Origin: a virus
Strand: one strand, 5' to 3'
Length of the DNA: 64,000 bases
IMG/VR virus record: IMGVR_UViG_3300034021_001440
Location: 32,001-96,000 of that record
Position numbers and translations under genes: made by a program. The notes below the pieces were generated by a model. It saw only the letters and a program-made list of their open reading frames with translations. It ran no database searches and was not told where the DNA came from. The stretch's first letter is position 1. The number at the start of each line of letters is the position of its first letter. Shown here piece by piece: positions 12,553-23,364 of the stretch.

Positions 12553-12831
12553 ATGTCTAAGGAGAAGGACACAATAATCCAACAGAAAGAGTTTCTCGCC
12601 AATGAAGCCCTACGAGTAGCCAATGAAGCCATCGGAATGCTGCAAGATCAACTGGCCGAGTGTTCCACACGGGATCTGGTTCAAATCTTCTCCGCCTCCG
12701 TGAAAGCTCACCGGGAAATCACCGAGGACATTGTGGTTCTCACTGCCAAAGAACCTCCTGCTGAAGAGCAACTGGCACGGGAATATGATGGCAAGGTTGG
12801 AGAACTTCTCAAAAGAATTAGTGACTTCTGA
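12553..12831 (+). CDS. helical protein, candidate terminase small subunit
   Basis: Position only: translationally coupled to terL. Confidence 0.4.
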   Translation: MSKEKDTIIQQKEFLANEALRVANEAIGMLQDQLAECSTRDLVQIFSASVKAHREITEDIVVLTAKEPPAEEQLAREYDGKVGELLKRISDF

Positions 12832-14582
12832 TGCGTCCAATCCTCACGAAGGCAAAACTGCTCGAAGAGCATAGCACTTGGAGAAAATACATCCGAGGAA
12901 TGAAAGAATTGATGCTGCTTGAGGCGCCTCAATCTGTGATTGATGACTTCCGATACCAGGCAGCACGAAACTGTTTTTTGGCATTTGCCGACATCATGAA
13001 GAAAGGTGACCTCAAAGTGGTTGCCTTTCACGAAATTATTGCATCTGCGTTCGAAGATCTGGCAAACAAGCGCTATCGCCGTCTGATTGTTTCGTGCCCT
13101 CCGCGTTCGGGCAAGTCGATGCTTGCGTCGATGTTTGTAGCGTGGCTGCTTGGTCGAGACCAGCAAACACAGCACATCATTGCGTCATACGGTCAGCAAC
13201 TTTCCAACAAGTTCTTTCGCGACGCCATTCAGATGCTCAAGCATCCAGAGTTTCGAAAGATTTTTCCGGATTGGAAAGGTTTTGCTCCCGACTCCAAATA
13301 CGACATGCTTGGCGGAGGATACATTCTTCCAACCTCCGTTGGCGGTGTGCTGACTGGTTTCACTTCTGGAACGACCAACCTAACGAGCCCTGGCGTGGGC
13401 TCCATGATCATTGACGACCCGCTCAAGGACTCCACCTCGAAAGCTGCTTTGGAAGAGCTGGAGTCATGGTGGGGGGAACAGGCATCCACCCGGCGCACCA
13501 ACAATTGGTGTCAGCTAGTGATTGCTACACGATTTCATGAAAGGGACTTGCACGGGGTGCTGCTGGAAGCGGACGGGGTCTATGACGAGGAAGAGAACCC
13601 GATGGGTTGGCGCTGGGTCAATATCGCAGGCATCATTGAGACTCCGGAGCAGGCCGACGAGGACCCACTGGAGCGAGAGCTGGGAGAAACGCACTGGCCA
13701 AGCAACACTGCGTTCACCGTGGATATGCTCATGGCACAGAAAAAGACCATGGGTTCTTTTGCCTTCTCTGCTCTGTATCAGGGCAACCCGGTGGCTGCCG
13801 AGGGTCAGATCATCAAAGACAGCTGGATTAATCGCATCAACCTTTCAGAGTGTCCAAACTTTGACCTGACTTGGCTCTCAGTTGACTGTGCTTTTTCGGA
13901 AAAAGAAATGGCTGACGAGACAGCAATCTGTGTCGCTTCCATCTCTCACCAGCACCCTGGCCTTGTATATGTTCGAGAAATGATCACGGGCAGACTGGGA
14001 TTCCCAGACTTGATTGCAAAGGTCAAACACTTGTATGCTTTCTATGGTGCCCGTGTTCTGTGCATTGAGAAAGCTGCCTCGGGACAGTCCCTGATTCAGA
14101 TGCTGAAGAAAGAAGCTCGGATTCCGATTGAAGAGATGAAGCCGCTGAAGTCAAAGACGATTCGTCTTCAAGCGGTGGCCCCTTTGATGGAGTTTGCTCG
14201 GGTGAAGTTCGTGGAGGGCGAGTGGATTGACTCGTTTGTGAAAGAACTGACCACGTTTCCTTTCGTCAAGCACGATGACCGAACTGACGCCTTCACCTGG
14301 GCTCTGACTTATTATTCGATGAAGTTAGACAAAGTAGACAAAGGATTGCAAGATAGCATTTTGCAAAACAAACGTTTCTACGGCGACCTCACTCGTCCAG
14401 GATTTGGTGACCGAAACGTTTTCTCAAACTTGTCTCGTGGGCGTTTGCGTTTGTTTCCTGCCGATAACGCCTATAATGACCCGGACTATGATGCCGTCTC
14501 TGGCGAAGCAGACAGTCGATCCGCCTTTTTGAGAGGCATTCGAGGAGCAAATCGAAACATTGGTTGGGACACTGATTTGTGA
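12831..14582 (+). CDS. terL: terminase large subunit
   Basis: Walker A PPRSGKS, Walker B MIIDDP, ATRFH, ALYQGNP, nuclease motifs SVDCA, IEKAASG, HDDRTDA. Confidence 0.93.
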   Translation: MRPILTKAKLLEEHSTWRKYIRGMKELMLLEAPQSVIDDFRYQAARNCFLAFADIMKKGDLKVVAFHEIIASAFEDLANKRYRRLIVSCPPRSGKSMLASMFVAWLLGRDQQTQHIIASYGQQLSNKFFRDAIQMLKHPEFRKIFPDWKGFAPDSKYDMLGGGYILPTSVGGVLTGFTSGTTNLTSPGVGSMIIDDPLKDSTSKAALEELESWWGEQASTRRTNNWCQLVIATRFHERDLHGVLLEADGVYDEEENPMGWRWVNIAGIIETPEQADEDPLERELGETHWPSNTAFTVDMLMAQKKTMGSFAFSALYQGNPVAAEGQIIKDSWINRINLSECPNFDLTWLSVDCAFSEKEMADETAICVASISHQHPGLVYVREMITGRLGFPDLIAKVKHLYAFYGARVLCIEKAASGQSLIQMLKKEARIPIEEMKPLKSKTIRLQAVAPLMEFARVKFVEGEWIDSFVKELTTFPFVKHDDRTDAFTWALTYYSMKLDKVDKGLQDSILQNKRFYGDLTRPGFGDRNVFSNLSRGRLRLFPADNAYNDPDYDAVSGEADSRSAFLRGIRGANRNIGWDTDL

Positions 14583-14610
14583 TTTACATTTGGGGGGACA
14601 AAGGTAAAAT
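14583..14610 (+). promoter_or_regulatory. sigma70-like promoter TTTACA-N16-TAAAAT
   Basis: -10 element ends 5 nt before ATG 14616. Confidence 0.55.
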
Positions 14611-14615
14611 AAATC

Positions 14616-15137
14616 ATGAAGCACAAACACCATATAAAACCCAGATACGAGGGTGGTTCAGACGACCCTGAAAACCTTGTGGAGTTGACTCCAATTCAAC
14701 ACGCAATGTGGCACTATGCCGAGTGGTTGAGGAAAGGAAATTGGCAAGACCTTGCTGCGTATAGAACTCTGGCGGGTAGAGCGCCAAAGGAGGAAGTAAT
14801 CAGAGGATTGGTTTCGGAGTCGAACCGGTCCAGGAAGGGTGAGAAAAGAAGTCCCCGACCCTTGGAAGTTAGACTAAAAATCGCAAAGTCCGTGAAGGAA
14901 AGTCATGAGAGAGCACGAAAAGAAGTCAAACCAAAACCAAAACCAAAACCACCTGCGAGAGGCAGAGGCAGAAAACCAAAACCAATCGAATTGACATCTC
15001 CCTGCGGTCAGTTTGCTTTTTTATTCCCTTCTGCCAAAGAAGCGGGAGCAATACTGGGACTATGGGATGGCAATATTACTAAAGTTGCCCGTGGGGAATG
15101 GAAACAGACGGGCGGATGGACTGCTCGCTACGTGTAG
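14616..15137 (+). CDS. HNH homing endonuclease with NUMOD1-like C-terminus
   Basis: HKHHIKPRYEGGSDDPENLVELTPIQHAMWH; FPSAKEAG..ITKVARG..GGW. Confidence 0.85.
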   Translation: MKHKHHIKPRYEGGSDDPENLVELTPIQHAMWHYAEWLRKGNWQDLAAYRTLAGRAPKEEVIRGLVSESNRSRKGEKRSPRPLEVRLKIAKSVKESHERARKEVKPKPKPKPPARGRGRKPKPIELTSPCGQFAFLFPSAKEAGAILGLWDGNITKVARGEWKQTGGWTARYV

Positions 15138-15184
15138 CGCGATGGAACCGCGTAAAAAGTTTCTAATGTTTTTTCATTGGAACC

Positions 15185-15370
15185 ATGGCAAATTCCCCCG
15201 TTGATCGAAATCCTGAACTCATGCAGCAAGAGTTCGGAACCAAAGTGTTGATTACAGACCTTGCAGCAGACCGTTTGCTGGAGAAAGCATCCAAGCACGG
15301 AAACGAGCGGTATTCAAAGTGGTGCGGAGGCAAAGGCGGCTTTGATGATTTCGCAGAGCGACTTCACTGA
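15185..15370 (+). CDS. hypothetical protein
   Basis: 61-aa ORF preceded by the variant box GCGTAAAA. Confidence 0.6.
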   Translation: MANSPVDRNPELMQQEFGTKVLITDLAADRLLEKASKHGNERYSKWCGGKGGFDDFAERLH

Positions 15371-15378
15371 GGGCTGCC

Positions 15379-15386
15379 GGGTAAAA
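15379..15386 (+). promoter_or_regulatory. GGGTAAAA box
   Basis: 33 nt before ATG 15412. Confidence 0.7.
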
Positions 15387-15411
15387 ATAAGAGTCGATTG
15401 CCAGTCCTCCA

Positions 15412-16230
15412 ATGGATCGACTTATTTTTCTTGAAGGAGGTGAGTTGTATGTAGAGCTCGTCGGACACGAAGCGTATGATCTACCCACTGTTGTCAAGTT
15501 GTTATCCATGCTCACCTCCAAGGAAAAGCGCAAGACTCGTCGCGCTGAAGCTGCCCAGATGCTAGAACAATCCTACTCAAAAGGAATGGATGTTCAGCCG
15601 CCAAAGTTTCTCACCTGGCGCCAAGAAGAACTCTGGAACTCCTTCAAAAGAAACACAGTCACCCTCGCTCATGGCTGTGCCGGTACAGGAAAAACTCTGA
15701 TCGCCCTTCACTACGGACTTCATGGTATCGCCTCTGGCGATTTCGATAAAGTTTTCTACGTTCGTAGCGACGTCGGTGTTGAGTTTCAAAGGGGACGAGG
15801 CGCTCTCCCTGGCGATCTGTCTGAAAAGATCGCTCCGTTGATCGCACCAGTTTTAGACAACCTGCCCTGCATTATGCGTTCTCAGGGCGCAGCAGAATAC
15901 CTTCTCAATAAGAAAATTATTGAGCCGATCCTCCTCGAAGACATTCGCGGACGCTCTCTCAACGAATCTTTCATTATCGTGGATGAAGCGCAGAACTTCC
16001 TGCCTTCGCACATCAAAACCTGTCTCTCCCGCGTGGGCAAAGATTCCAAAATCTGCCTCATCGGCGATACCAAGCAAACGGACTTGGAAGTTTTCCGTCG
16101 CGAGAATGGACTTGTCGATGCCATTCATCGCCTCAACAACCTGATGGAAGTCGGGATTGTAGAGTTTCAAAAAGAAGACATTGTTCGCAACTCTGTGATT
16201 GCGCATATCCTAGACCGCTACGACGACTAA
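15412..16230 (+). CDS. phoH: PhoH family ATPase (alternative start 15508)
   Basis: GCAGTGKT, ALPGDLSEK, RGRSL, IIVDEAQN, GDTKQTD, DIVRN. Confidence 0.93.
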   Translation: MDRLIFLEGGELYVELVGHEAYDLPTVVKLLSMLTSKEKRKTRRAEAAQMLEQSYSKGMDVQPPKFLTWRQEELWNSFKRNTVTLAHGCAGTGKTLIALHYGLHGIASGDFDKVFYVRSDVGVEFQRGRGALPGDLSEKIAPLIAPVLDNLPCIMRSQGAAEYLLNKKIIEPILLEDIRGRSLNESFIIVDEAQNFLPSHIKTCLSRVGKDSKICLIGDTKQTDLEVFRRENGLVDAIHRLNNLMEVGIVEFQKEDIVRNSVIAHILDRYDD

Positions 16231-17648
16231 TGGCAAGCAAGGGACCCATGACTACCGCTCATTATCCTGGAAAGGGAGCTATGGGTCCCTCCTTGGGCAC
16301 ACGCAAGAGAGCACCCACAGCACGGGAAGTCGCTCGAGCAAAAGCGCAAGCGGTTGGTGGCGGAAGGAAAAGGTGCAGGAAAGGAAAAAATTGCTCGGCG
16401 GCTTGTATTCAGTCGCGCATGATTTGTTTGGTTGAGTTTCCCGCACCGGTGCAAGCCCCTCTCGGGCAGGTGCGTGACTATCTGAGGCAGAAAAATAATG
16501 TTCAACCAGGAAGTATCCAGGACAAGCGTCTGAACGCGGCCCTGGGCAAACTCTCCAGTGTTCTCAAAGTTGAGGGCCAAGAGGCCCCGTCAAAACGCAC
16601 GGGTTTGGCAAAGCCAACGGTTGAGTGGAAACGAGATGAAAAGAGGGCAGAAAGACAAGGCATTCTGTGGAAAGAAGTTCAAGGGTTGAAGAAGCGTCGA
16701 AACCTGCTGGGTGAGGCTGAGTTTGAGCGGGAGGCAATGCGTGCCCTTCACAAGGATGCGATGTCACGGGGTCTCCGACTGCCTCGCGCAGAATTGGAAA
16801 TGATCTTGGATGTTCTTCCAAAAAATGTTCAAACATCTCTCGCAAAGTCTGGAAGAGCAGAAAGTGGTCAGTGGTATAATGGAAAGGATGAAAATGGAAA
16901 TGTGATCTTCTCTAGAACCCCAGGCAAGGAAAGAGCTCTCGCTGTGCTCGACATGTGGTTTCGCCAGGGTGGCACAGATGCCTATCAGGGGAGAGGTGGC
17001 CGAGTGTGGGCACCACCCGATCTCGACATTGAGCACATGCGCTCACTCTCACAGGGTGGCAGGGACACCCCGTCCAACTGGATCTTGGCACGAGCTGGTG
17101 CTCAGCGAGCACGTCAGGCTCAACCTCTTGGCAAGTGGATTGATCGATTGCCGTCTTCCAAAGAGGAATACCAAACATATTTGTCAAACTATGCGAAAGA
17201 ACGCCGAGCAAAGCAAGCACGAAAAGCGCGATTGGCTCTGGTTGATCCGAAAAAAATTGGAGACGGGGAACTTTTCAGCAAAGGTGGAAAGACACTGGCA
17301 GAAATTTTCCGTGGAGAAAACGGGGGAAGAACCCCTGACACTTTCACAAAAGAGTGGTTGGGGATTGCAAGTTCTGGGGGACGGAAAGGAAACTCCGGGC
17401 CTCCCGCACCTTTCGCCAAAGGACTGGCTCTCATTGCAAAAGCAGAAGGTCTTCCCAAGGCACGGGCAGTTGGAAACACAATGAAGCGAATGTGGAACGA
17501 TGACTGGAAAGCACAAGGAAACATAACCAAGCAGCAAGCCTTCAAACAAATGGTGTCCGAAATGGAGAAAAGTTTGACCAGCGAACAATTCAACAACCTT
17601 TTCCTGCCCTCAGCGCAAGCATGGGCCAGAGCCAACGATTTCCTGTAG
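16230..17648 (+). CDS. basic Cys4 N-terminal module fused to an HNH-like domain
   Basis: CRKGKNCSAACI..C; QGGTDAY..DLDIEH..S.GG.D..SNW. Confidence 0.65.
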   Translation: MASKGPMTTAHYPGKGAMGPSLGTRKRAPTAREVARAKAQAVGGGRKRCRKGKNCSAACIQSRMICLVEFPAPVQAPLGQVRDYLRQKNNVQPGSIQDKRLNAALGKLSSVLKVEGQEAPSKRTGLAKPTVEWKRDEKRAERQGILWKEVQGLKKRRNLLGEAEFEREAMRALHKDAMSRGLRLPRAELEMILDVLPKNVQTSLAKSGRAESGQWYNGKDENGNVIFSRTPGKERALAVLDMWFRQGGTDAYQGRGGRVWAPPDLDIEHMRSLSQGGRDTPSNWILARAGAQRARQAQPLGKWIDRLPSSKEEYQTYLSNYAKERRAKQARKARLALVDPKKIGDGELFSKGGKTLAEIFRGENGGRTPDTFTKEWLGIASSGGRKGNSGPPAPFAKGLALIAKAEGLPKARAVGNTMKRMWNDDWKAQGNITKQQAFKQMVSEMEKSLTSEQFNNLFLPSAQAWARANDFL

Positions 17649-17652
17649 GGAC

Positions 17653-17985
17653 ATGAGAAAAGACACGCGTTTTCGTCGCCCTGAGCGGGCAGACATTGAG
17701 TCAAAACTTCCCAAGAAAATCCTCTCAGACCCTCAAGCACTCGGCGTCTGGAACATGATGCTCCAGTGTGACGACCCTTCAGACGTTTCTCACAAGTATC
17801 GATCATACCGAGACAGCGCACATTGCACTGTGCCTCGAGAGCATTTACGAGCGATGCGAGACACTATGATAACGGCAATGAGGGAAGAAAACAGCAAAGA
17901 CCCCAAACCAAGAAAAGAGAGGAAACAAGGAGTTCATTACACTGGTCACAATAACGGTTGGCTACCCCAGAGGAAAGGCGCATGA
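17653..17985 (+). CDS. hypothetical protein
   Basis: 110-aa ORF starting 4 nt after the HNH-like gene. Confidence 0.65.
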   Translation: MRKDTRFRRPERADIESKLPKKILSDPQALGVWNMMLQCDDPSDVSHKYRSYRDSAHCTVPREHLRAMRDTMITAMREENSKDPKPRKERKQGVHYTGHNNGWLPQRKGA

Positions 17986-18335
17986 ACGTCACCAAAGAAA
18001 TTGAAAGACACCGCCTTCCCTGCGGAGCGGCAACCATCGCGATCGACGGAGTTTGCCGTCGTCGTTTGAGGGATCACTTTGACGCACTGCTGGACAAGTT
18101 GGCCAATGAGGTCAATCCAGAGGGGGTCGATAAGGATATCCTTGAAATGGAGGAAGATGTCGAGATTCCTGAACCTCCCGCACCGGAAGAGACTCGCGAA
18201 GAGAAGAAAAAGCGTTTGATCGCTGAAGGGAAGCTGAGAGCAGAAGTGAACAAAGAGGTTGGCAAGTACAAAGAAAAACTGATGGGCAACAGCAAAATGC
18301 TGCAGGATATCTCGGGTAAAATCAAGAAACGGTAA
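17982..18335 (+). CDS. hypothetical protein
   Basis: ATGA overlap; start MNVTKE. Confidence 0.65.
   Translation: MNVTKEIERHRLPCGAATIAIDGVCRRRLRDHFDALLDKLANEVNPEGVDKDILEMEEDVEIPEPPAPEETREEKKKRLIAEGKLRAEVNKEVGKYKEKLMGNSKMLQDISGKIKKR
18314..18321 (+). promoter_or_regulatory. GGGTAAAA box
   Basis: 31 nt before ATG 18345. Confidence 0.65.
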
Positions 18336-18344
18336 TCAACCAAC

Positions 18345-18695
18345 ATGACAAATCGTATTGGTGGCGACTTCAATCAAGACGCCATGGAAGCCTTTCGTGC
18401 CGCATATGCTCAACAACTGAGCACTCCCGATGAGGACGGTGTGGCCAATAACTCTGGTCTTCCGACGAATGTAGTGACAAATACTTCACCCTGGATCGAG
18501 CACACTGGGCTGTGGAAATACCCCAGTGGCAAAGGTCCGGATGAAGATTTGAAAACTCCATTTGACCCGAATCAGTATCTTTCCGACGTTATCTCTGACG
18601 ATGATGAGGAAGCCGACAGCTTGAGTGAAGAAGAAGTCGAGCACCTGATCAATGAAATCACTGGATCTGAGGACGAAGAAGAAGAGGCTGAGTAG
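18345..18695 (+). CDS. acidic protein with shared leader motif
   Basis: GDFNQDAMEAFRAAYAQ leader. Confidence 0.7.
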   Translation: MTNRIGGDFNQDAMEAFRAAYAQQLSTPDEDGVANNSGLPTNVVTNTSPWIEHTGLWKYPSGKGPDEDLKTPFDPNQYLSDVISDDDEEADSLSEEEVEHLINEITGSEDEEEEAE

Positions 18696-18702
18696 GGTAA
18701 AA
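18695..18702 (+). promoter_or_regulatory. GGGTAAAA box
   Basis: 33 nt before ATG 18728. Confidence 0.7.
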
Positions 18703-18727
18703 AGCATACATAGCCTGTGGTCCAATT

Positions 18728-19369
18728 ATGTTCTTCACTGCCCCGAGAGTGATTCCTGAACCTCCCGTTGATGGATTCCCCTCCACCAACCCTCGTCAGG
18801 CAGGGTACAACGAGGACATCAAACAGCGTCTGGCTGGTAAAGACGAGGAAGGGAAAGAGCGTCTTCTGGATGCCCTGCGCTTTGCGTTTTGGATGAGCCC
18901 GAATCTGCCCGGCGTTGAGCTTCTGGTCAGTTCTGCACCTGTGATTACTCTCCACGACCTGGAGGGTGAGTTTGACATTACCATCAATCACGGAAGCGCC
19001 GCCTTTTCCGTTCATGAGAGTCCCTATGGCGATTCTACTCTGGAGGATCAAAGGGTGGCCCTCGGTCGCAGGTTGCTGAAGAACTGGAACACTTTGATCG
19101 CTCATTTGCCCGAAGGTTTTATTATCTACGGTCCCGACGTTGATCTCAACCACCCCACTTTCCCTGTTCGGGAAAGAGTTTTGCAAGGCTTGGGTTTTGC
19201 TCCGGTAGAGGCCAACGGTGACCGCATGGCGATTGTTCGCGGTGGCCAACTGTCTCCTTTGACTGCTTTTCAGCACCACGAACTGACCGGGGAGGATGGC
19301 CCGGCTCATTTGTACAATCAGCGTCTCTGCGTCGAAGAGATTGTCTGGGGCAGCAAGGAGGCTGAGTGA
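18728..19369 (+). CDS. hypothetical protein
   Basis: 213-aa ORF following the motif. Confidence 0.7.
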   Translation: MFFTAPRVIPEPPVDGFPSTNPRQAGYNEDIKQRLAGKDEEGKERLLDALRFAFWMSPNLPGVELLVSSAPVITLHDLEGEFDITINHGSAAFSVHESPYGDSTLEDQRVALGRRLLKNWNTLIAHLPEGFIIYGPDVDLNHPTFPVRERVLQGLGFAPVEANGDRMAIVRGGQLSPLTAFQHHELTGEDGPAHLYNQRLCVEEIVWGSKEAE

Positions 19370-20079
19370 TGTACGGTTCCAACTTTGATTTCAGTGGTGT
19401 TGTTCTTCCCGGCGCTGGCGGTCAAATCAACGCCAGCAACGCCATCAGTGGCGATCAACTTGCCAAAATGAATAAGACCGGTAAAAAATGGCGTCCCGAC
19501 GCAGATGGTTTTATGTCCAACCACAATGAGAACATCCTGAAGATGAACGCCGAGCACCGCGAAAAGCGTGCTGGGCTTGTCAATCGGGACTATAACGAGA
19601 ACGCTGACGGCAAAGATGCGATGAAGGAAATCTTCGATCGCAAAAAAGCTCGAATGTCTTCTTTCAAAGAGATGAAGAAGAATGAGTATGGCTTTGCGGA
19701 AGGGGACTCGCAAGACTCAGAGCTTCTGAGCATGCCCCTGCCAGCATTCAAAGACCACACCTGCAAAGGCCCTGGTTGCCCGATCTGCACCAGCCAGAAG
19801 TATGCGGAGATGTCATTCAGAGAGTGGAGCACCGAAAAGCGCAAGGCGCTCAAAGAGGGCAAAGTCAAGGGCGAATTTGCGGGTCCTGACATGAGCTTTC
19901 CGATTGCCAGCCCTGTGGATGTTGCCGCAGCATGGTCTTCTGTGGGCCGCGCCGCCAATCCTCGGGCCATCATGAAGCGCATCATCTCGATTGCCAAAAA
20001 GCATGGCTGGGAGTCGGGTCTCCCGGAGTCCGTCAAGAAACGTCTGGCAGCTGGTGAATCTGGTTTGCCAACGGAGTGA
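19366..20079 (+). CDS. putative head-internal protein
   Basis: Many [FYH]xE sites; C-terminal FAGPDMSFPI..VAAAW..GRA..LP domain of a type seen in phage head-associated proteins. Confidence 0.6.
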   Translation: MMYGSNFDFSGVVLPGAGGQINASNAISGDQLAKMNKTGKKWRPDADGFMSNHNENILKMNAEHREKRAGLVNRDYNENADGKDAMKEIFDRKKARMSSFKEMKKNEYGFAEGDSQDSELLSMPLPAFKDHTCKGPGCPICTSQKYAEMSFREWSTEKRKALKEGKVKGEFAGPDMSFPIASPVDVAAAWSSVGRAANPRAIMKRIISIAKKHGWESGLPESVKKRLAAGESGLPTE

Positions 20080-20082
20080 GCC

Positions 20083-20403
20083 ATGGGGCTTGACATTCTT
20101 GGCGTAGTTGCCTCAATTGCGACTATCATATCCGGACTCGGTTGGGTTCTTGACAGAAACTCCAAAAAGTTTGCGTCAATGCAACAAGCGAGTTCCGACA
20201 TGCTGACAAACTTTGGTGCCAAAGTTGAAAGACTCGACCAAACTCTCACCGAGGTTCGTCTCACTCTTCCAGAAAAGTATGTGACGAAAGAAGAGTTATT
20301 GATGCACATCCGGGGGGAAGAAACCTGGCACAATTCGATTGATCGCCGCCTTGACGATATCCGTGACGAACTTTCCTCCCTACGTGAATGGAGACACCGA
20401 TGA
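20083..20403 (+). CDS. single-pass membrane coiled-coil protein
   Basis: N-terminal hydrophobic helix, then coiled coil with LPEKYVTKEE. Confidence 0.65.
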   Translation: MGLDILGVVASIATIISGLGWVLDRNSKKFASMQQASSDMLTNFGAKVERLDQTLTEVRLTLPEKYVTKEELLMHIRGEETWHNSIDRRLDDIRDELSSLREWRHR

Positions 20404-20999
20404 ACTTTGATGACTACGACTGGGAACGCCTTGAAGGTCTTGGCTTTGCTGAGGATGCTCGTGAAGAGCTGAAGAAAGCATGTTGGAAAGGCTATGAGGC
20501 CATTGGTGTAAAACAAAAGAATGGGCGCACCGTGCCCAACTGTGTGCCTAAGAAGAAAAAGAAAAGTCTGAGTTCTAATCACGGGGAGCAGTTTGACATC
20601 AACAAGCCAAACGACATCAATGACATGGCCATCGGCAATGCCCTGCCGAAAGTGCCTGCCACCGGCCCTGTGAAAAATCCACAGATGGGTGAGCAAAAGA
20701 TTCGCATGCCTCGCATGGAAGAGATCAAAAAAGCCAACGCCAATAATGGGCAACTGGCCATGGCTGCTGCTCCCAACTATGCCGAGACTGAAGACTTCAA
20801 CGATGCGTTTCATTCCGACGAGCCAAATGCCCGGATGATCATCACGCAACTGCGAGTGATGCGAGAAAAGATTGACATCATGCTCGGAATGATGTATCCC
20901 GATGACAACTTTGAACCCTGGGTGGCAACCAAAATTGCCAACGCCGGAGTTGGAGTTGCCAGTGTTGCCGACTATCTTCGCTTTGGGGGAGAAACGTGA
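20400..20999 (+). CDS. putative head-internal protein
   Basis: CWKGY..KNGRTVPNCVP and EPWVATKI..DYL motifs familiar from cyanomyophage proteins. Confidence 0.65.
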   Translation: MNFDDYDWERLEGLGFAEDAREELKKACWKGYEAIGVKQKNGRTVPNCVPKKKKKSLSSNHGEQFDINKPNDINDMAIGNALPKVPATGPVKNPQMGEQKIRMPRMEEIKKANANNGQLAMAAAPNYAETEDFNDAFHSDEPNARMIITQLRVMREKIDIMLGMMYPDDNFEPWVATKIANAGVGVASVADYLRFGGET

Positions 21000-21328
21000 T
21001 GTTTGGATCATTTCCTGACGATGTGCTTGAGGATTTCTTTCAGAGCTATGCTGAAAGAATCGACAAAGACAAAATGCCTTGCAACAAACCCAAGGCACAA
21101 GCGGTGGGTGACTCACTGACTGGAAAGTCACATGTAGTCAAGGCATGCGCAAACGGCAAAGAAAAAGTCATTCGCTTTGGGCAGCGCGGTGTGAAAGGGT
21201 CACCAAAGAAAGAGGGTGAGTCCGCAGCATACGCAAGTCGTCGCAAGCGTTTCAAAACTCGGCACGCAAAAAATATTGCCAAAGGCCCCATGAGTGCGGC
21301 CTACTGGGCAAATAAAGTTAAATGGTAA
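20996..21328 (+). CDS. small basic protein with acidic leader
   Basis: KVIRFG..RRKRFKTRH..SAAYWANKVKW viral domain following YAE. Confidence 0.7.
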   Translation: MMFGSFPDDVLEDFFQSYAERIDKDKMPCNKPKAQAVGDSLTGKSHVVKACANGKEKVIRFGQRGVKGSPKKEGESAAYASRRKRFKTRHAKNIAKGPMSAAYWANKVKW

Positions 21329-21331
21329 CAA

Positions 21332-21339
21332 GGGTAAAA
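21332..21339 (+). promoter_or_regulatory. GGGTAAAA box
   Basis: 35 nt before ATG 21367. Confidence 0.7.
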
Positions 21340-21366
21340 CCCTACATATAATGTCTCTGTCCGGCA

Positions 21367-21891
21367 ATGCGAAAGGACTCCATCAACAATGAAGCCCTTG
21401 AAAAGGCTTATCTGATTTACAAAGAGCACGGTCACGAAATTGTTGACTATGACTTTTCGCACGCGCCGACCGACTATCAGCGGGGCACCGTGCGTGAGCC
21501 AGAGCAGGTCTCTGTCGTCGAAGGTGCTTTCAAAGAGCTGGTGAACCCTGCCAACGTTTCCAACGGTTTCCGCTATGAAGACCTGAAGAGCAAGGCTGAT
21601 GCCCTGGATGCTCGTATCGACGAGCAACAGAACAAGCTGCGTGTGTGTCGCCTGCGCGGAAACTTCCAAGAGTTTCACAGGTGTATGCAAGAAATGCAAG
21701 ATATGATCAAAGAGAAAGAGCGCCTTGACGCCAAAATGGCTGTCGCCGCTCCGGGTGGAAACGCCGGTCAAAAGCAAATGGATGACTATAATCGCACCTA
21801 CGATCAAAACGATAACTACTCTGAAATAACCAGCATTGCAGATCGCATCGCTGCCCTCGAAGAGCAAATCAAGGCATACATGGAGGGGTGA
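21367..21891 (+). CDS. coiled-coil protein with shared leader motif
   Basis: DSINNEALEKAYLIYKE leader; heptad pattern. Confidence 0.7.
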   Translation: MRKDSINNEALEKAYLIYKEHGHEIVDYDFSHAPTDYQRGTVREPEQVSVVEGAFKELVNPANVSNGFRYEDLKSKADALDARIDEQQNKLRVCRLRGNFQEFHRCMQEMQDMIKEKERLDAKMAVAAPGGNAGQKQMDDYNRTYDQNDNYSEITSIADRIAALEEQIKAYMEG

Positions 21892-23150
21892 TCCCCATGC
21901 TGTCACGCCAACCTACTGCTTCCGACATTCGATCTGCCAAAAGCCGTGCCACAGGGGGAGGACGGAAACGTTGCCGCCGTGGAAAGAATTGTTCCGCCGC
22001 TTGCATTCAAGCAAGCATGGTGTGCCTTGTTGAACTGCCAGAGTCCGCAGGTGTCAATCTTTCGAGGGCTTCGTCGTTCTTGAGCAAACGCGCACCGAGC
22101 TTGCCGAGCAGTATGAAGAGGGAACTTGCCGGGCTCGGTGGTGGTCCCACGGATGTATTGGACGTCAAAGCAAAAACAGTTGAAAGAAAAACAGAAGGCA
22201 AGCCGCCGTGGTCAGCCACAGGAAATACCAAGTGGGCACGAGAGGATGCCGAAGACTTTGACTCTGCCTTGGTCGCAAAGGGCAAGACAGAGCCGCTGCG
22301 AAGAGTGGGAGATAAATCTTATGACAAGTGGGATGATAGCTATGGGAGCGGTGCTTCAAAGGTTGGGGAAGGATCTTATGGAGCCGTCATTCGCAACAAA
22401 GACGGCACATATGTGAAGAGAGGAGCCATCTCTGACACCGAGGCCGAGTTGATTGAGCGGGTGGGGAGAGCAGATATCGGCCCTCGCCTGAAGGCAGCAG
22501 ACATTGACGGAAAACACGACTGGCACGACGAAAAATTTGTAGACGTGCGTGAAGGCCGCATCGCAATGACTGGTGTTCCCGGCAAGCCAATTGGTGACAC
22601 TGCCTTTCCGGATACAAAGCTGGGAGGGAGAAATGCCGCTGATGTGTATTGGGGTGCCCTTGGCAATTTACACCGGCTCGGTATTGCCCATAATGATGCG
22701 CACATTGATAACATCCTTGTGGACGACAAGGGCAAAGGGCGCTGGGTGGACTTGGGACTGGCACAGGCTAATCCAAAAGCAGCCTTTCTAGAAGCCTTTG
22801 GAACTTTTACACCGGCAAACAAGTCGGGAGGGTCCAACTGGAAAGAAGGAAATTGGCAAACTTCTCGATGGCGAGCAACCGGAGTTGAAGACTATTTCAA
22901 ACGAAATGACTTTGGAAGAGGAAAAGAGTTTCTTCAAGACGGAAAGTATAAAGAATTTCGTACAGTCGTTGAGAACCAGCCGAAAGTTCTAAACAAACTG
23001 AGAACTATGGGTTTCTCTGTTTCTGAAATTGACCAACTCATTAGAACTCCCATTCGCTCCACTCCGGAGACTTTTCAACAAGGCCCTTGGGCAAAAATGA
23101 CAGACACCCAAGCCAAAGAACTCATCAACATTTTCTACGATGGCATCTAA
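21888..23150 (+). CDS. basic Cys4 N-terminal module fused to a protein kinase-like domain
   Basis: CRRGKNCSAACI..C; GEGSYG, YVK, HNDAHIDN, VDLG. Confidence 0.8.
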   Translation: MIPMLSRQPTASDIRSAKSRATGGGRKRCRRGKNCSAACIQASMVCLVELPESAGVNLSRASSFLSKRAPSLPSSMKRELAGLGGGPTDVLDVKAKTVERKTEGKPPWSATGNTKWAREDAEDFDSALVAKGKTEPLRRVGDKSYDKWDDSYGSGASKVGEGSYGAVIRNKDGTYVKRGAISDTEAELIERVGRADIGPRLKAADIDGKHDWHDEKFVDVREGRIAMTGVPGKPIGDTAFPDTKLGGRNAADVYWGALGNLHRLGIAHNDAHIDNILVDDKGKGRWVDLGLAQANPKAAFLEAFGTFTPANKSGGSNWKEGNWQTSRWRATGVEDYFKRNDFGRGKEFLQDGKYKEFRTVVENQPKVLNKLRTMGFSVSEIDQLIRTPIRSTPETFQQGPWAKMTDTQAKELINIFYDGI

Positions 23151-23307
23151 AAAAGACGACAAAGACTATGGGATTTTGATGGCTCAGTACAAGAACTTGA
23201 GAACCAAAGACCCGGAGAACGCAATAAAATACCTTGAAGGCGCAATGAAGTTGCGAGAGCAAGGAAACGTGAGTGAAGATGCTGTGATAGGGTCTGCGTA
23301 TCTGTAG
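23140..23307 (+). CDS. 55-aa helical protein, absent from the ORF track
   Basis: MASKKDDKDYGILMAQYKNL..GSAYL; overlaps the kinase 3' end and fills the gap. Confidence 0.6.
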   Translation: MASKKDDKDYGILMAQYKNLRTKDPENAIKYLEGAMKLREQGNVSEDAVIGSAYL

Positions 23308-23308
23308 C

Positions 23309-23316
23309 GGGTAAAG
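23309..23316 (+). promoter_or_regulatory. GGGTAAAG variant box
   Basis: 56 nt before ATG 23365. Confidence 0.5.
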
Positions 23317-23364
23317 TTATGGAAAGCGTGTCTTCACACGCGCACAACTTTGCTCTTCAGCACG

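What the first reader, a model, noticed from the sequence alone, without database searches (positions are those of the whole stretch)
16230..23307. Shared basic Cys4 module fused to swappable effectors (HNH-like, kinase), each with a small downstream partner
Seen: PTAREVARAKAQAVGGGRKRCRKGKNCSAACIQSRMICLVEFP (from ~16314) and PTASDIRSAKSRATGGGRKRCRRGKNCSAACIQASMVCLVELP (from ~21912) are nearly the same module. One is followed by an HNH-like domain, the other by a protein kinase domain. Both lie in late-box units near terminase, and each is followed tightly by a small ORF (110 aa; 55 aa overlapping). Established: polymorphic toxins such as phage MuF toxins pair a conserved delivery domain with variable toxins and an adjacent immunity gene. 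Inference: a phage polymorphic effector system whose Zn-binding basic module loads enzymes into the capsid for injection (host takeover, anti-defence or competition).
Basis: partly seen in the sequence, partly recalled or inferred. Interest (0 to 1): 0.85.

Follow-up and report, generated by a model that had tools for sequence, protein, structure and literature searches.

The report
Cys4 address tag on phage-packaged enzymes
Two late genes of this cyanophage-like virus share a short, basic, four-cysteine N-terminal tag that many related phages fuse to interchangeable enzymes (nucleases, kinases, ADP-ribosyltransferases), and in the nearest cultured relative four of the five proteins with this tag are reported or annotated as present in the virus particle, so the tag probably loads enzymes into the virion for delivery to the next host.

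Summary
ORFs 16230-17648 (472 aa) and 21888-23150 (420 aa) share an N-terminal module, GG-x-RKR-C-x-KGK-x-C-x3-C-I-x5-C-LV[ED]-x-P. One continues into an HNH-like nuclease, the other into a Bud32/RIO-like kinase.

A profile search found 324 protein clusters. In the 150 listed hits the module is N-terminal and single-copy. It is fused to at least 22 C-terminal families (ART, kinase, HNH types, HExxH, nucleotidyltransferase, unknowns), often stacked in mosaic. It matches nothing in Pfam, NCBIfam or the PDB, and a pattern scan found none in cellular genomes.

In Synechococcus phage S-CBWM1 (syntenic block) five proteins carry the module. Three kinases are reported in virions and a fourth protein is annotated as a virion structural protein. 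The one kinase without the tag is not listed.

"Packaged, swappable effectors" is therefore supported. Zinc binding is untested. The "immunity gene" part is not supported. The 110-aa ORF is a conserved core gene whatever the upstream variant. The 55-aa ORF tracks kinases across phage families, and its S-CREM2 homologue was itself detected in virions.

It is a new variant of a known kind (T4 capsid-targeting sequences, MuF toxins). Other first-stage readers flagged this same stretch; the scan shows nothing like it on other DNA.

The parts
15379..15385 (+). GGGTAAA late-type box heading the PhoH / module-HNH / 110-aa ORF operon
   Evidence: 22 copies in the window against 4.6 expected, 21 on the + strand, mostly just upstream of structural genes
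15412..16230 (+). PhoH-like ATPase (context); its stop overlaps the start of the module-HNH gene
   Evidence: Pfam PhoH E=3e-50; terL-phoH-module gene order conserved in 34 loci and in S-CBWM1
16230..17648 (+). 472-aa protein: variable leader, Cys4 module, linker, HNH-like (beta-beta-alpha-Me) cargo with helical C-terminal region
   Evidence: AlphaFold mean pLDDT 79 with the cargo confident; best fold matches are the S-CBWM1 and S-TIM5 virion proteins
16308..16445 (+). Cys4 basic module, copy 1 (residues 27-72)
   Evidence: Cys at residues 49, 55, 59, 66
17016..17129 (+). HNH core (residues 263-300: D-I-E-H ... S-N-W ... G-A-Q-R-A-R)
   Evidence: E268, H269, N283 invariant in 25 homologues; Pfam HNH and NCBIfam IscB-HNH weak matches
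17653..17985 (+). 110-aa ORF, conserved core gene that always follows the first module protein
   Evidence: Found after the module gene in 13 loci, in 28 more and as S-CBWM1 gp107 (38% id, E=6e-19); no family match
21332..21338 (+). GGGTAAA box heading the 174-aa ORF / module-kinase / 55-aa ORF operon
21888..23150 (+). 420-aa protein: Cys4 module, low-confidence linker, Bud32/RIO-like protein kinase; GTG start overlapping the 174-aa ORF by 4 nt
   Evidence: catalytic residues conserved in 25 homologues
21906..22043 (+). Cys4 basic module, copy 2 (residues 7-52)
   Evidence: Cys at residues 29, 35, 39, 46
22320..22817 (+). kinase catalytic core (about residues 145-310)
   Evidence: Alignment A9: G160, G162, K177, E185, H268, D270, N275, D288 invariant and N269 in at least 90% of sequences
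23140..23307 (+). 55-aa ORF, kinase-linked partner
   Evidence: Homologues lie next to kinases in L003-L010, L030, L031, L084, L098, L146 and others, and as S-CREM2 gp13; 26 of 30 HMM hits are kinase-adjacent; absent where the kinase is absent (L013, L018)
23309..23315 (+). GGGTAAA box of the downstream 1648-aa tail-fibre gene; marks the 3' edge of the kinase cassette
   Evidence: in L013 and L018 the 174-aa ORF is followed directly by the fibre gene

Best explanation
The shared segment is an N-terminal address tag. It is a 22-47-residue basic motif with four invariant cysteines (core K/R-x-C-x-K-G-K-x-C-x3-C-[IV]-x5-C, usually followed by L-V-[E/D]-x-P and a flexible linker). It directs enzymes made together with the structural proteins into the assembling virion, from where they enter the next host with the DNA. 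In this phage two proteins carry it. (1) An HNH-like nuclease-fold protein sits at a fixed position (terL - phoH - X - 110-aa ORF) and diverges far faster than its flanks. (2) A Bud32/RIO-like protein kinase, together with a 55-aa partner, forms an accessory two-gene cassette inserted between the 174-aa ORF and the first tail-fibre gene. Shown: the shared module; its strict N-terminal position; the diversity and mosaic of its cargo; its restriction to phage sequences; late-box co-regulation; and the genetic linkage of the 55-aa ORF to kinases. Taken from the literature and annotation for homologues: presence in virions. Inferred: that the tag itself causes incorporation (by binding scaffold/core, portal or DNA); that the four Cys bind a metal; that the enzymes act early in the next infection (host takeover or counter-defence); and that the 55-aa protein binds the kinase and travels with it as a regulator, inhibitor or chaperone. 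The 110-aa ORF is a conserved core gene of unknown role, not a cargo-specific antidote.
For: Module shared between the two proteins: E=7e-13, old paralogues. An exhaustive profile search gave 324 clusters at E<=1e-3 and 170 at <=1e-10. In the 150 listed the match is single and N-terminal. In 188 sequences Cys1 lies at residues 5-68 (median 26) with unchanged spacing. Cargo: 22 C-terminal clusters among 175 proteins. They include an R-S-ExE ADP-ribosyltransferase (54 representatives; PDB Vis E=3.5e-15), an unknown domain (43), kinase (24), HNH types, an HExxH type (10) and cytidylyltransferase-like. They are combined as module+A+ART, module+B+NTase+ART, module+E+D and so on. Several tagged proteins occur per genome: 2 here, 5 in S-CBWM1, 5 in each of two IMG/VR phages, and tandem arrays in L009 and L084. 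Virion link: S-CBWM1 gp174 (module+HNH-like) is annotated 'virion structural protein' and lies between the prohead peptidase and the major capsid protein. PMC10665884 states that the APH-, ChoK- and Rio2-type kinases of S-CBWM1 were detected in virions; these are gp162, gp161 and gp113, all with the module. The PknB-like kinase gp173 has no module and is not listed. Homologous cargo without the module is also virion-associated: S-TIM5 AEZ65730 and S-CREM2 gp14 kinase and gp12 'Cas9-like' nuclease. In S-CREM2 the kinase and its 55-aa-type partner have a shared short leader (K-x-x-[FL]-x-x-F-L-T-E) where this phage has the Cys4 module. Co-regulation with structural genes via the GGGTAAA box. The genome has a portal, a 932-aa prohead protease-scaffold and a major capsid protein. 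No module in 185,579 species genomes by pattern. The same cargo types (ART, kinase, NTase, peptidase) are those predicted to be head-packaged in MuF fusions and polyvalent proteins (PMC5512222, PMC9503650).
Against: There is no direct data for this phage: no proteome, and no test that the tag is necessary or sufficient. The S-CBWM1 virion data reached me only through GenBank product names and a secondary citation; the primary paper (Xu 2018) was not readable. S-CBWM1 gp106, the positional equivalent of the 472-aa protein, is annotated only 'hypothetical'. The authors of PMC10665884 themselves warn that abundant non-structural proteins can contaminate virion preparations. AlphaFold gives the module low confidence (pLDDT 45-62), so no fold or metal site can be claimed. 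The same Cys core occurs at the C-terminus of small proteins with hydrophobic or lipobox-like N-termini. This shows that the core is a self-standing knot that can serve outside a targeting role, possibly disulfide-bonded rather than metal-bound.
Confidence: 0.6

Rival explanations
1. Classical polymorphic toxin-immunity system. The module is the delivery domain, the C-terminal domains are toxins aimed at competitors or the host, and the small downstream ORFs are cognate immunity proteins that protect the producer.
For: Variable C-terminal enzymatic domains on a constant N-terminal module, including toxin-type ARTs related to Vis, Tre1 and HopU1. Small ORFs tightly coupled downstream. The 55-aa ORF co-occurs with the kinase and is lost with it. 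HNH DNases with small helical inhibitors are known (colicin E9/Im9; my own knowledge).
Against: The 110-aa ORF is 59-85% identical and stays in place while the upstream protein is 22-27% identical or of another type, with terL 87% and phoH 91%. The 55-aa family is conserved at 40-60% across kinases that are only 26-43% identical, and it can lie upstream (L003-L009). Its S-CREM2 homologue is in the virion proteome table and has the kinase's own leader. About half of the kinase ORFs have no such neighbour. No MuF, Rhs or other known toxin-delivery domain was found. A lytic-type phage has no obvious need to protect a dying host.
Confidence: 0.12
2. The module is a basic nucleic-acid-binding knuckle that acts inside the infected cell, tethering various enzymes to phage or host DNA/RNA or to a replication/packaging complex. 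Detection in virions is a by-product of sticking to packaged DNA or of high late expression.
For: Very basic composition (GG-x-RKR-C-x-KGK) with four invariant Cys. Position next to terL and phoH. An HNH protein beside a terminase recalls the HNH-terminase cooperation of HK97-like phages (my own knowledge). PMC10665884 raises the contamination caveat.
Against: A DNA tether does not explain why ARTs, protein kinases, metallopeptidase-like and unknown domains share one tag. It also does not explain why the untagged PknB-like kinase of S-CBWM1 is not among the virion-detected kinases. Binding to DNA that is then packaged would still make the module a packaging device in practice, so this rival partly merges with the main reading. 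No match to any known DNA-binding zinc finger.
Confidence: 0.15
3. The module is a stability or regulatory element that happens to be shared by late enzymes and has no addressing role. It could be a metal- or disulfide-locked cap, or a redox switch that keeps the enzymes inert until they reach a reducing cytoplasm.
For: The same Cys core is found in small, probably exported proteins where disulfides are likely. AlphaFold is not confident without a cofactor. A nuclease stored next to DNA needs to be kept inactive (inference).
Against: A strict N-terminal position followed by a variable, low-confidence linker fits a tag better than an allosteric element. One cap serving more than 20 unrelated catalytic folds is hard to reconcile with specific regulation. 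This reading does not explain the correlation with virion detection in S-CBWM1.
Confidence: 0.08

Closest known systems
T4 capsid-targeting sequence (CTS) on internal proteins IPI-III and Alt
   Same: An N-terminal signal shared by otherwise unrelated proteins, including an ADP-ribosyltransferase. It loads them into the prohead core, and they are ejected into the host with the DNA. It is portable to foreign proteins, and the cargo is poorly conserved between related phages (PMC9026906).
   Different: The T4 CTS is about 10 residues, has no cysteines and is removed by gp21 after a Glu. Here the element is 22-47 residues with four invariant Cys and a basic cluster. Cleavage is unknown: a conserved [E/D] three residues after the last Cys is suggestive only. 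The phage group is S-CBWM1-like, not T4-like.
MuF-family phage polymorphic toxins and MuF-effector fusions
   Same: A constant head-associated N-terminal part with variable C-terminal enzymatic domains (ART, kinase, nucleotide-modifying), encoded among head genes and predicted to be injected (PMC12226406, PMC9503650, PMC5512222).
   Different: No MuF domain here. The constant part is a tiny Cys motif, not a roughly 300-residue structural protein. The neighbouring small ORFs do not behave as cognate immunity genes. MuF toxins are described in temperate phages of Firmicutes.
Polyvalent proteins of phages and conjugative elements (Iyer et al. 2017)
   Same: Several effector domains are strung in one polypeptide (for example module+B+NTase+ART at 1088 aa; module plus three kinase-like domains at 1460 aa), drawn from the same repertoire of ART, kinase, NTase and peptidase.
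   Different: Most members here carry one or two cargo domains. The unifying N-terminal Cys4 module was not found in that paper by text search.
Virion-associated protein kinases, cytidylyltransferases and 'Cas9-like' nuclease of cyanophages (S-CBWM1, S-CRM01, S-TIM5, S-CREM2)
   Same: Homologous cargo (kinase 26-30% identity; HNH-like domain 26-29%) found by mass spectrometry in virions. S-CBWM1 has the same gene block.
   Different: In what I could read, those reports list the proteins one by one without noting a common N-terminal tag. GenBank starts for gp113 and gp161 even cut the tag off. The T4-like phages use a different leader.

Membership tests
MuF-type phage polymorphic toxin | N-terminal MuF (SPP1 gp7 / Mu F) head-morphogenesis domain | tested here: not met
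   No MuF match in Pfam scans of the two window proteins or of 30 homologues
MuF-type phage polymorphic toxin | Variable C-terminal toxic/enzymatic domain on a constant N-terminus | tested here: met
   22 C-terminal clusters on one module
MuF-type phage polymorphic toxin | Adjacent cognate immunity gene that varies with the toxin | tested here: not met
   The 110-aa ORF is conserved whatever the upstream variant. The 55-aa ORF is linked to kinases but is conserved across divergent kinases, and its S-CREM2 homologue is virion-listed
T4-type CTS-directed internal head proteins | Short N-terminal propeptide of the T4 CTS type, removed by the prohead protease after Glu | tested here: inconclusive
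   The sequence is not CTS-like (Cys4, 22-47 aa). A conserved [E/D] at Cys4+3 (89%) and a Pro at +5 (85%) could be a processing site. The genome has a prohead protease. Cleavage cannot be tested here.
T4-type CTS-directed internal head proteins | Protein present inside mature virions | not testable with these tools
   Only indirect: S-CBWM1 annotation and the PMC10665884 statement for four of five tagged homologues
HNH (beta-beta-alpha-Me) nuclease | Catalytic His and the Asn of the HNH motif on a beta-beta-alpha core | tested here: met
   E268, H269 and N283 are invariant in 25 homologues. The model has strands 265-269 and 284-288 followed by helix 289-295. The third polar position is Q in the window protein and N in most others.
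HNH (beta-beta-alpha-Me) nuclease | Significant match to a curated HNH model or solved HNH structure | tested here: inconclusive
   Pfam HNH 17.3 bits, below the 21.4 cut-off. Foldseek gives the Gme HNH (4h9d) at E about 1, probability 0.6, over 56 columns.
Protein kinase-like (Bud32/RIO/ePK) fold | Gly-rich loop, ATP-binding Lys, catalytic H-x-D...N loop and metal-binding D-x-G | tested here: met
   G160, G162, K177, E185, H268, D270, N275 and D288 are invariant and N269 is nearly invariant in 25 homologues. Pfam Pkinase at 22.4 bits and Bud32 at 24.6 bits are below the curated cut-offs.
Zinc finger / zinc knuckle | Four conserved metal ligands | tested here: met
   Four Cys with fixed spacing in all 188 sequences examined
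Zinc finger / zinc knuckle | Metal binding, or membership of a known zinc-binding fold | tested here: not met
   No Pfam, NCBIfam or PDB family matches. The model has low confidence there. Metal binding itself cannot be tested here.
R-S-ExE ADP-ribosyltransferase (cargo of homologues, not in this window) | Sequence relationship to solved ARTs and an ExE catalytic motif | tested here: met
   Profile A3 against the PDB: Vis E=3.5e-15, then Tre1-type, HopU1, ExoT, SpvB, VIP2. S308, E350 and E352 are invariant.

The most novel reading that the evidence does not exclude
The KGK-Cys4 motif is a previously unrecognised, portable and probably metal-dependent virion-loading domain. Functionally it is the counterpart of the T4 capsid-targeting sequence but is unrelated to it. 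A broad set of aquatic phages (contigs of 35-600 kb) would use it to arm their particles with more than 20 interchangeable enzyme families. The locus after phoH would be an arms-race hotspot, and the kinases would travel with a dedicated 55-aa regulatory subunit.
Probability: 0.45. Interest if true: 0.8.

Novelty: new variant of a known kind. Interest (0 to 1): 0.68.

Why it matters
Packaged 'first-strike' proteins decide the first minutes of an infection, but outside T4 (CTS), N4 and the MuF fusions the rules for loading them are unknown. A short tag that can be read from sequence would allow several things. The injected arsenal of uncultured cyanophages could be predicted from metagenomes; ART, kinase and nuclease cargo are already visible. 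It would explain why several unrelated 'regulatory' enzymes turn up in cyanophage virion proteomes. It would point to unknown cargo families, such as the 43-cluster domain D, as candidate host-takeover or anti-defence enzymes. It would also offer a handle for loading foreign proteins into phage particles. Finally, it corrects start-codon annotations in S-CBWM1.

Tried and rejected
AlphaFold of the kinase protein with the mosaic alignment A1 gave a useless model (pLDDT 47.7).

tblastn of the 54-aa module against the phage collection found nothing, even though S-CBWM1 has it; the query is too short or was filtered.

My first degenerate DNA pattern had one N too many and found nothing. The corrected pattern worked.

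Window-level domain clustering collapsed into one component, so I replaced it with clustering of the last 200 residues.

Pfam scans of cargo-cluster representatives were mostly empty. PDB profile searches of domain D and the HExxH type found nothing credible.

ESM Atlas gave no usable hit for the module or the 110-aa ORF.

Foldseek against the PDB for the 472-aa model gave only weak HNH matches. The VIA-align wide search had not finished after repeated collection attempts.

The genome-contig scan with the module pattern found no cellular copy. It used a single pattern, so divergent forms could have been missed.

I considered and rejected two ideas. Lipoprotein or secretion signal: the tagged proteins have no hydrophobic stretch. 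Recent duplication or assembly artefact: synonymous divergence and conservation in dozens of contigs argue against it.

Full report
OBSERVATION

The window is part of a 112,418-bp single-contig virus record. All genes in the region are on the + strand. In order they are:
- large terminase, 12831-14582
- an HNH homing-type endonuclease, 14616-15137
- PhoH, 15412-16230
- a 472-aa ORF, 16230-17648
- ORFs of 110, 125, 116, 213, 237, 106, 203, 110 and 174 aa
- a 420-aa ORF, 21888-23150
- a 55-aa ORF, 23140-23307
- a 1648-aa tail fibre, from 23350

The 472-aa and 420-aa proteins share only their N-termini (BLASTP E=7e-13). The shared part reads P-T-A-x-[ED]-[IV]-x-x-A-K-[AS]-x-A-x-GGGRKRCR[KR]GKNCSAACIQ[SA]xM[IV]CLVE[FL]P, with four Cys spaced x5, x3 and x6. 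The two coding stretches differ at most synonymous positions. No third copy exists in the genome.

THE TWO CARGO DOMAINS

The 472-aa protein has an HNH (beta-beta-alpha-Me) core. E268, H269 and N283 are invariant across 25 homologues, and there are weak Pfam HNH and NCBIfam IscB-HNH matches. An AlphaFold model built on the family alignment is confident for residues 80-472 (mean pLDDT 79) but not for the module (pLDDT 45-62). Its best fold matches among viral models are:
- the S-CBWM1 'virion structural protein'
- the S-TIM5 'virion structural protein and packaging'
- 'cytitidyltransferase' proteins of T4-like cyanophages

The 420-aa protein is a small Bud32/RIO-like kinase. Its Gly loop, Lys, Glu, H-N-D...N and D-L-G are conserved or invariant. 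It is related at 24-30% identity to kinases of Synechococcus phages.

THE MODULE IS A WIDESPREAD N-TERMINAL UNIT WITH SWAPPABLE CARGO

A word-based search with the 56-aa module returned 39 longer proteins. An exhaustive HMMER profile search over 1.84 billion representatives returned 324 clusters at E<=1e-3 and 170 at <=1e-10. In the 150 listed hits the match is single and N-terminal. In 188 sequences the four Cys keep their spacing, with Cys1 at residues 5-68 and a median of 26.

I clustered the last 200 residues of the 175 proteins that have at least 150 residues after the module. This gave 22 families:
- an R-S-ExE ADP-ribosyltransferase, 54 representatives (PDB Vis E=3.5e-15; ExE invariant)
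- an unknown domain D, 43 representatives
- the kinase, 24 representatives
- three HNH-like subfamilies, 11, 3 and 2 representatives
- an HExxH family, 10 representatives
- a second HNH-like family, 8 representatives
- a cytidylyltransferase-like domain
- about ten small groups or singletons

Domains are stacked in mosaic: module+A+ART, module+B+ART, module+B+NTase+ART (1088 aa), module+E+D and module+A+E. One 1460-aa protein has three kinase-like domains.

The module matches nothing in Pfam, NCBIfam or the PDB. A pattern scan of one genome for each of 185,579 prokaryote species found no copy. Most of these lie at the N-termini of 200-1460-aa ORFs on contigs of 35-618 kb.

GENOMIC CONTEXT AND THE VIRION LINK

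The nearest cultured phage is Synechococcus phage S-CBWM1 (terL 54% identical). Its gp103-gp116 block is syntenic with window 12831-23350:
- terL
- PhoH
- gp106, with the module at residue 6
- gp107, the homologue of the 110-aa ORF (38% identity, E=6e-19)
- several small genes
- gp113, a 'RIO-like kinase'
- gp114, 64 aa, which resembles the 55-aa ORF at motif level only (BLASTP at E<=0.01 and the HMM both missed it)
- baseplate genes

A profile scan of the S-CBWM1 record finds five module ORFs: gp106, gp113, gp161, gp162 and gp174. For gp113 and gp161 the deposited start codon lies downstream of the module. gp174 (module + HNH-like) is annotated 'virion structural protein' and sits between the prohead peptidase and the major capsid protein.

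PMC10665884 states, citing Xu et al. [quoted passage not shown] By product name these are gp162, gp161 and gp113. The fourth kinase, PknB-like gp173, has no module and is not in that list. So four of the five tagged proteins are reported or annotated as virion proteins, and the one untagged paralogue is not named. I could not read the primary paper, so this rests on annotation and a secondary citation.

Homologous cargo without the module is also virion-associated:
- S-TIM5 AEZ65730
- S-CREM2 gp14 kinase, 21 peptides
- S-CREM2 gp12 'Cas9-like' nuclease, 28 peptides

In this genome both module genes lie in operons headed by GGGTAAA. This box occurs 22 times against 4.6 expected, almost always on the + strand and just upstream of fibre, adaptor and other structural genes. 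The genome also encodes a portal, a 932-aa prohead protease with a long C-terminal extension, and a major capsid protein.

THE SMALL ORFS

The 110-aa ORF follows the first module protein in every related locus that reaches far enough: 13 loci, 28 more, and S-CBWM1 gp107. Its conservation does not track its neighbour. In L048, L083 and L134, terL is 87%, PhoH 91% and the 110-aa ORF 76% identical to the window. The protein between them shares only the module with the window protein, and its cargo is about 22% identical to another HNH-like subfamily. The position after phoH is therefore a hypervariable locus with conserved flanks, and the 110-aa ORF is part of the conserved flank, not a cognate antidote.

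The 55-aa ORF behaves differently. It is absent, together with the kinase, in L013 and L018, where the 174-aa ORF runs straight into the fibre gene. It is present and overlapping the kinase stop in L030 and L031. It lies immediately upstream of a 33%-identical kinase in L003-L009, and downstream of the triple-kinase protein in L010.

An HMM of the family gives 30 hits in the loci held. Of these, 26 are adjacent to a kinase ORF on the same strand. The other four lie in loci (L041, L059, L119, L128) that cover a region where a 91-aa module-only stub is followed directly by the hit, as checked in L059. About half of all kinase ORFs have no such neighbour.

In the T4-like phage S-CREM2, gp13 (78 aa) is a homologue (E=7e-10) that lies directly after the virion kinase gp14. 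It is itself listed in the virion proteome with one peptide. gp13 and gp14 begin with the same leader (MKDLHSFLTEQ / VKRFDAFLTEEE). From memory this resembles the T4 capsid-targeting sequence; I did not verify that against a T4 sequence. If it holds, homologous kinases carry a CTS-like leader in T4-like phages and the Cys4 module in S-CBWM1-like phages. That fits the two being functional equivalents.

MECHANISM

My best reading, at about 0.6, is that the Cys4 module is an address tag. It brings late-made enzymes into the particle by binding the scaffold/core, the portal or the DNA. Its basic cluster would suit DNA or an acidic scaffold. The enzymes are then delivered with the genome and act before phage genes are expressed.

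The conserved L-V-[E/D]-x-P after the last Cys (acidic in 89% of sequences, Pro in 85%) and the variable, low-confidence linker fit a tag-linker-cargo design. They may also mark a protease site, but this is untested.

The concept is established for T4 (PMC9026906) and predicted for MuF fusions and polyvalent proteins (PMC5512222, PMC9503650). What is new is the tag itself and the breadth of its cargo. Zinc binding is plausible but unproven. The same core in small, probably exported proteins leaves disulfide bonding open as an alternative.

VERDICT

The system is a new variant of a known kind. Other first-stage readers noted the same stretch of this genome; the look-up by sequence showed no such finding on other DNA.

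Noticed in passing
window, 22 sites, e.g. 3549, 4659, 15379, 18695, 21332, 23309, 28291, 31154, 33191, 37427, 39883, 43628: GGGTAAA occurs 22 times against 4.6 expected, 21 on the + strand, typically 20-40 nt upstream of structural-gene starts. It is a strong candidate late promoter or regulatory box.
   Followed up: partly
L045:8411-8464 and L001:3986-4039 (S-CBWM1 MG450654.1, gp113 and gp161): The deposited start codons of two S-CBWM1 kinases lie downstream of an in-frame Cys4 module with its own ATG (MSKRCTKGKSCGATC..., MGKNCSKGKSCGSAC...). The annotated proteins are probably N-terminally truncated.
   Followed up: yes
IMG/VR loci L049, L050, L051, L065, L072-L074, L080, L100, L111, L121, L123, L140, L143 and others: A second family has the same core motif. 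These are 45-150-aa proteins with hydrophobic or lipobox-like N-termini that end in CCKxCxKGKxCGxSCIxxxxxCHxPxGCAC. No Pfam or NCBIfam match. They are possibly exported, disulfide-rich proteins.
   Followed up: partly
window 16230-17648 compared with L048/L083/L134 (IMG/VR): The gene between phoH and the 110-aa ORF is hypervariable. Identity outside the module is about 22%, while terL, phoH and the 110-aa ORF are 76-91% identical. This pattern is typical of an arms-race locus.
   Followed up: yes
L009:5950-9928, L084:973-4161, L010:4804-9186: There are tandem arrays of two or three module-bearing kinase genes, interleaved with 55-aa-type ORFs in L084. One 1460-aa protein has the module followed by three kinase-like domains.
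   Followed up: partly
alignment A7 N-termini; window 19366-19420 and 20388-20430: Many homologues of the 472-aa protein start with an N-[FY]-D-F-A motif upstream of the module. Similar N-terminal strings occur in the window's 237-aa (SNFDFSG) and 203-aa (MNFDDYDW) ORFs. This may be the shared leader that another first-stage note describes.
   Followed up: no
L162:3311-5847 (S-CREM2 OR473000.1 gp13, gp14): The virion kinase gp14 and the small gp13 share an N-terminal K-x-x-[FL]-x-x-F-L-T-E-[EQ] leader, which from memory resembles the T4 capsid-targeting sequence.
   Followed up: partly
window 14616-15137: An HNH/NUMOD homing-type endonuclease sits between terL and phoH. It is present in only some close relatives (L015, L018, L027) and absent in others, so it is probably a mobile insertion.
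   Followed up: partly
genome G000:C1:19797-22595 (outside the window; L163:1798-4593): A 932-aa ORF has a head-maturation protease domain in its first ~330 residues (phrog_976, E=3.5e-65). The long C-terminal extension is probably a fused scaffold.
   Followed up: partly
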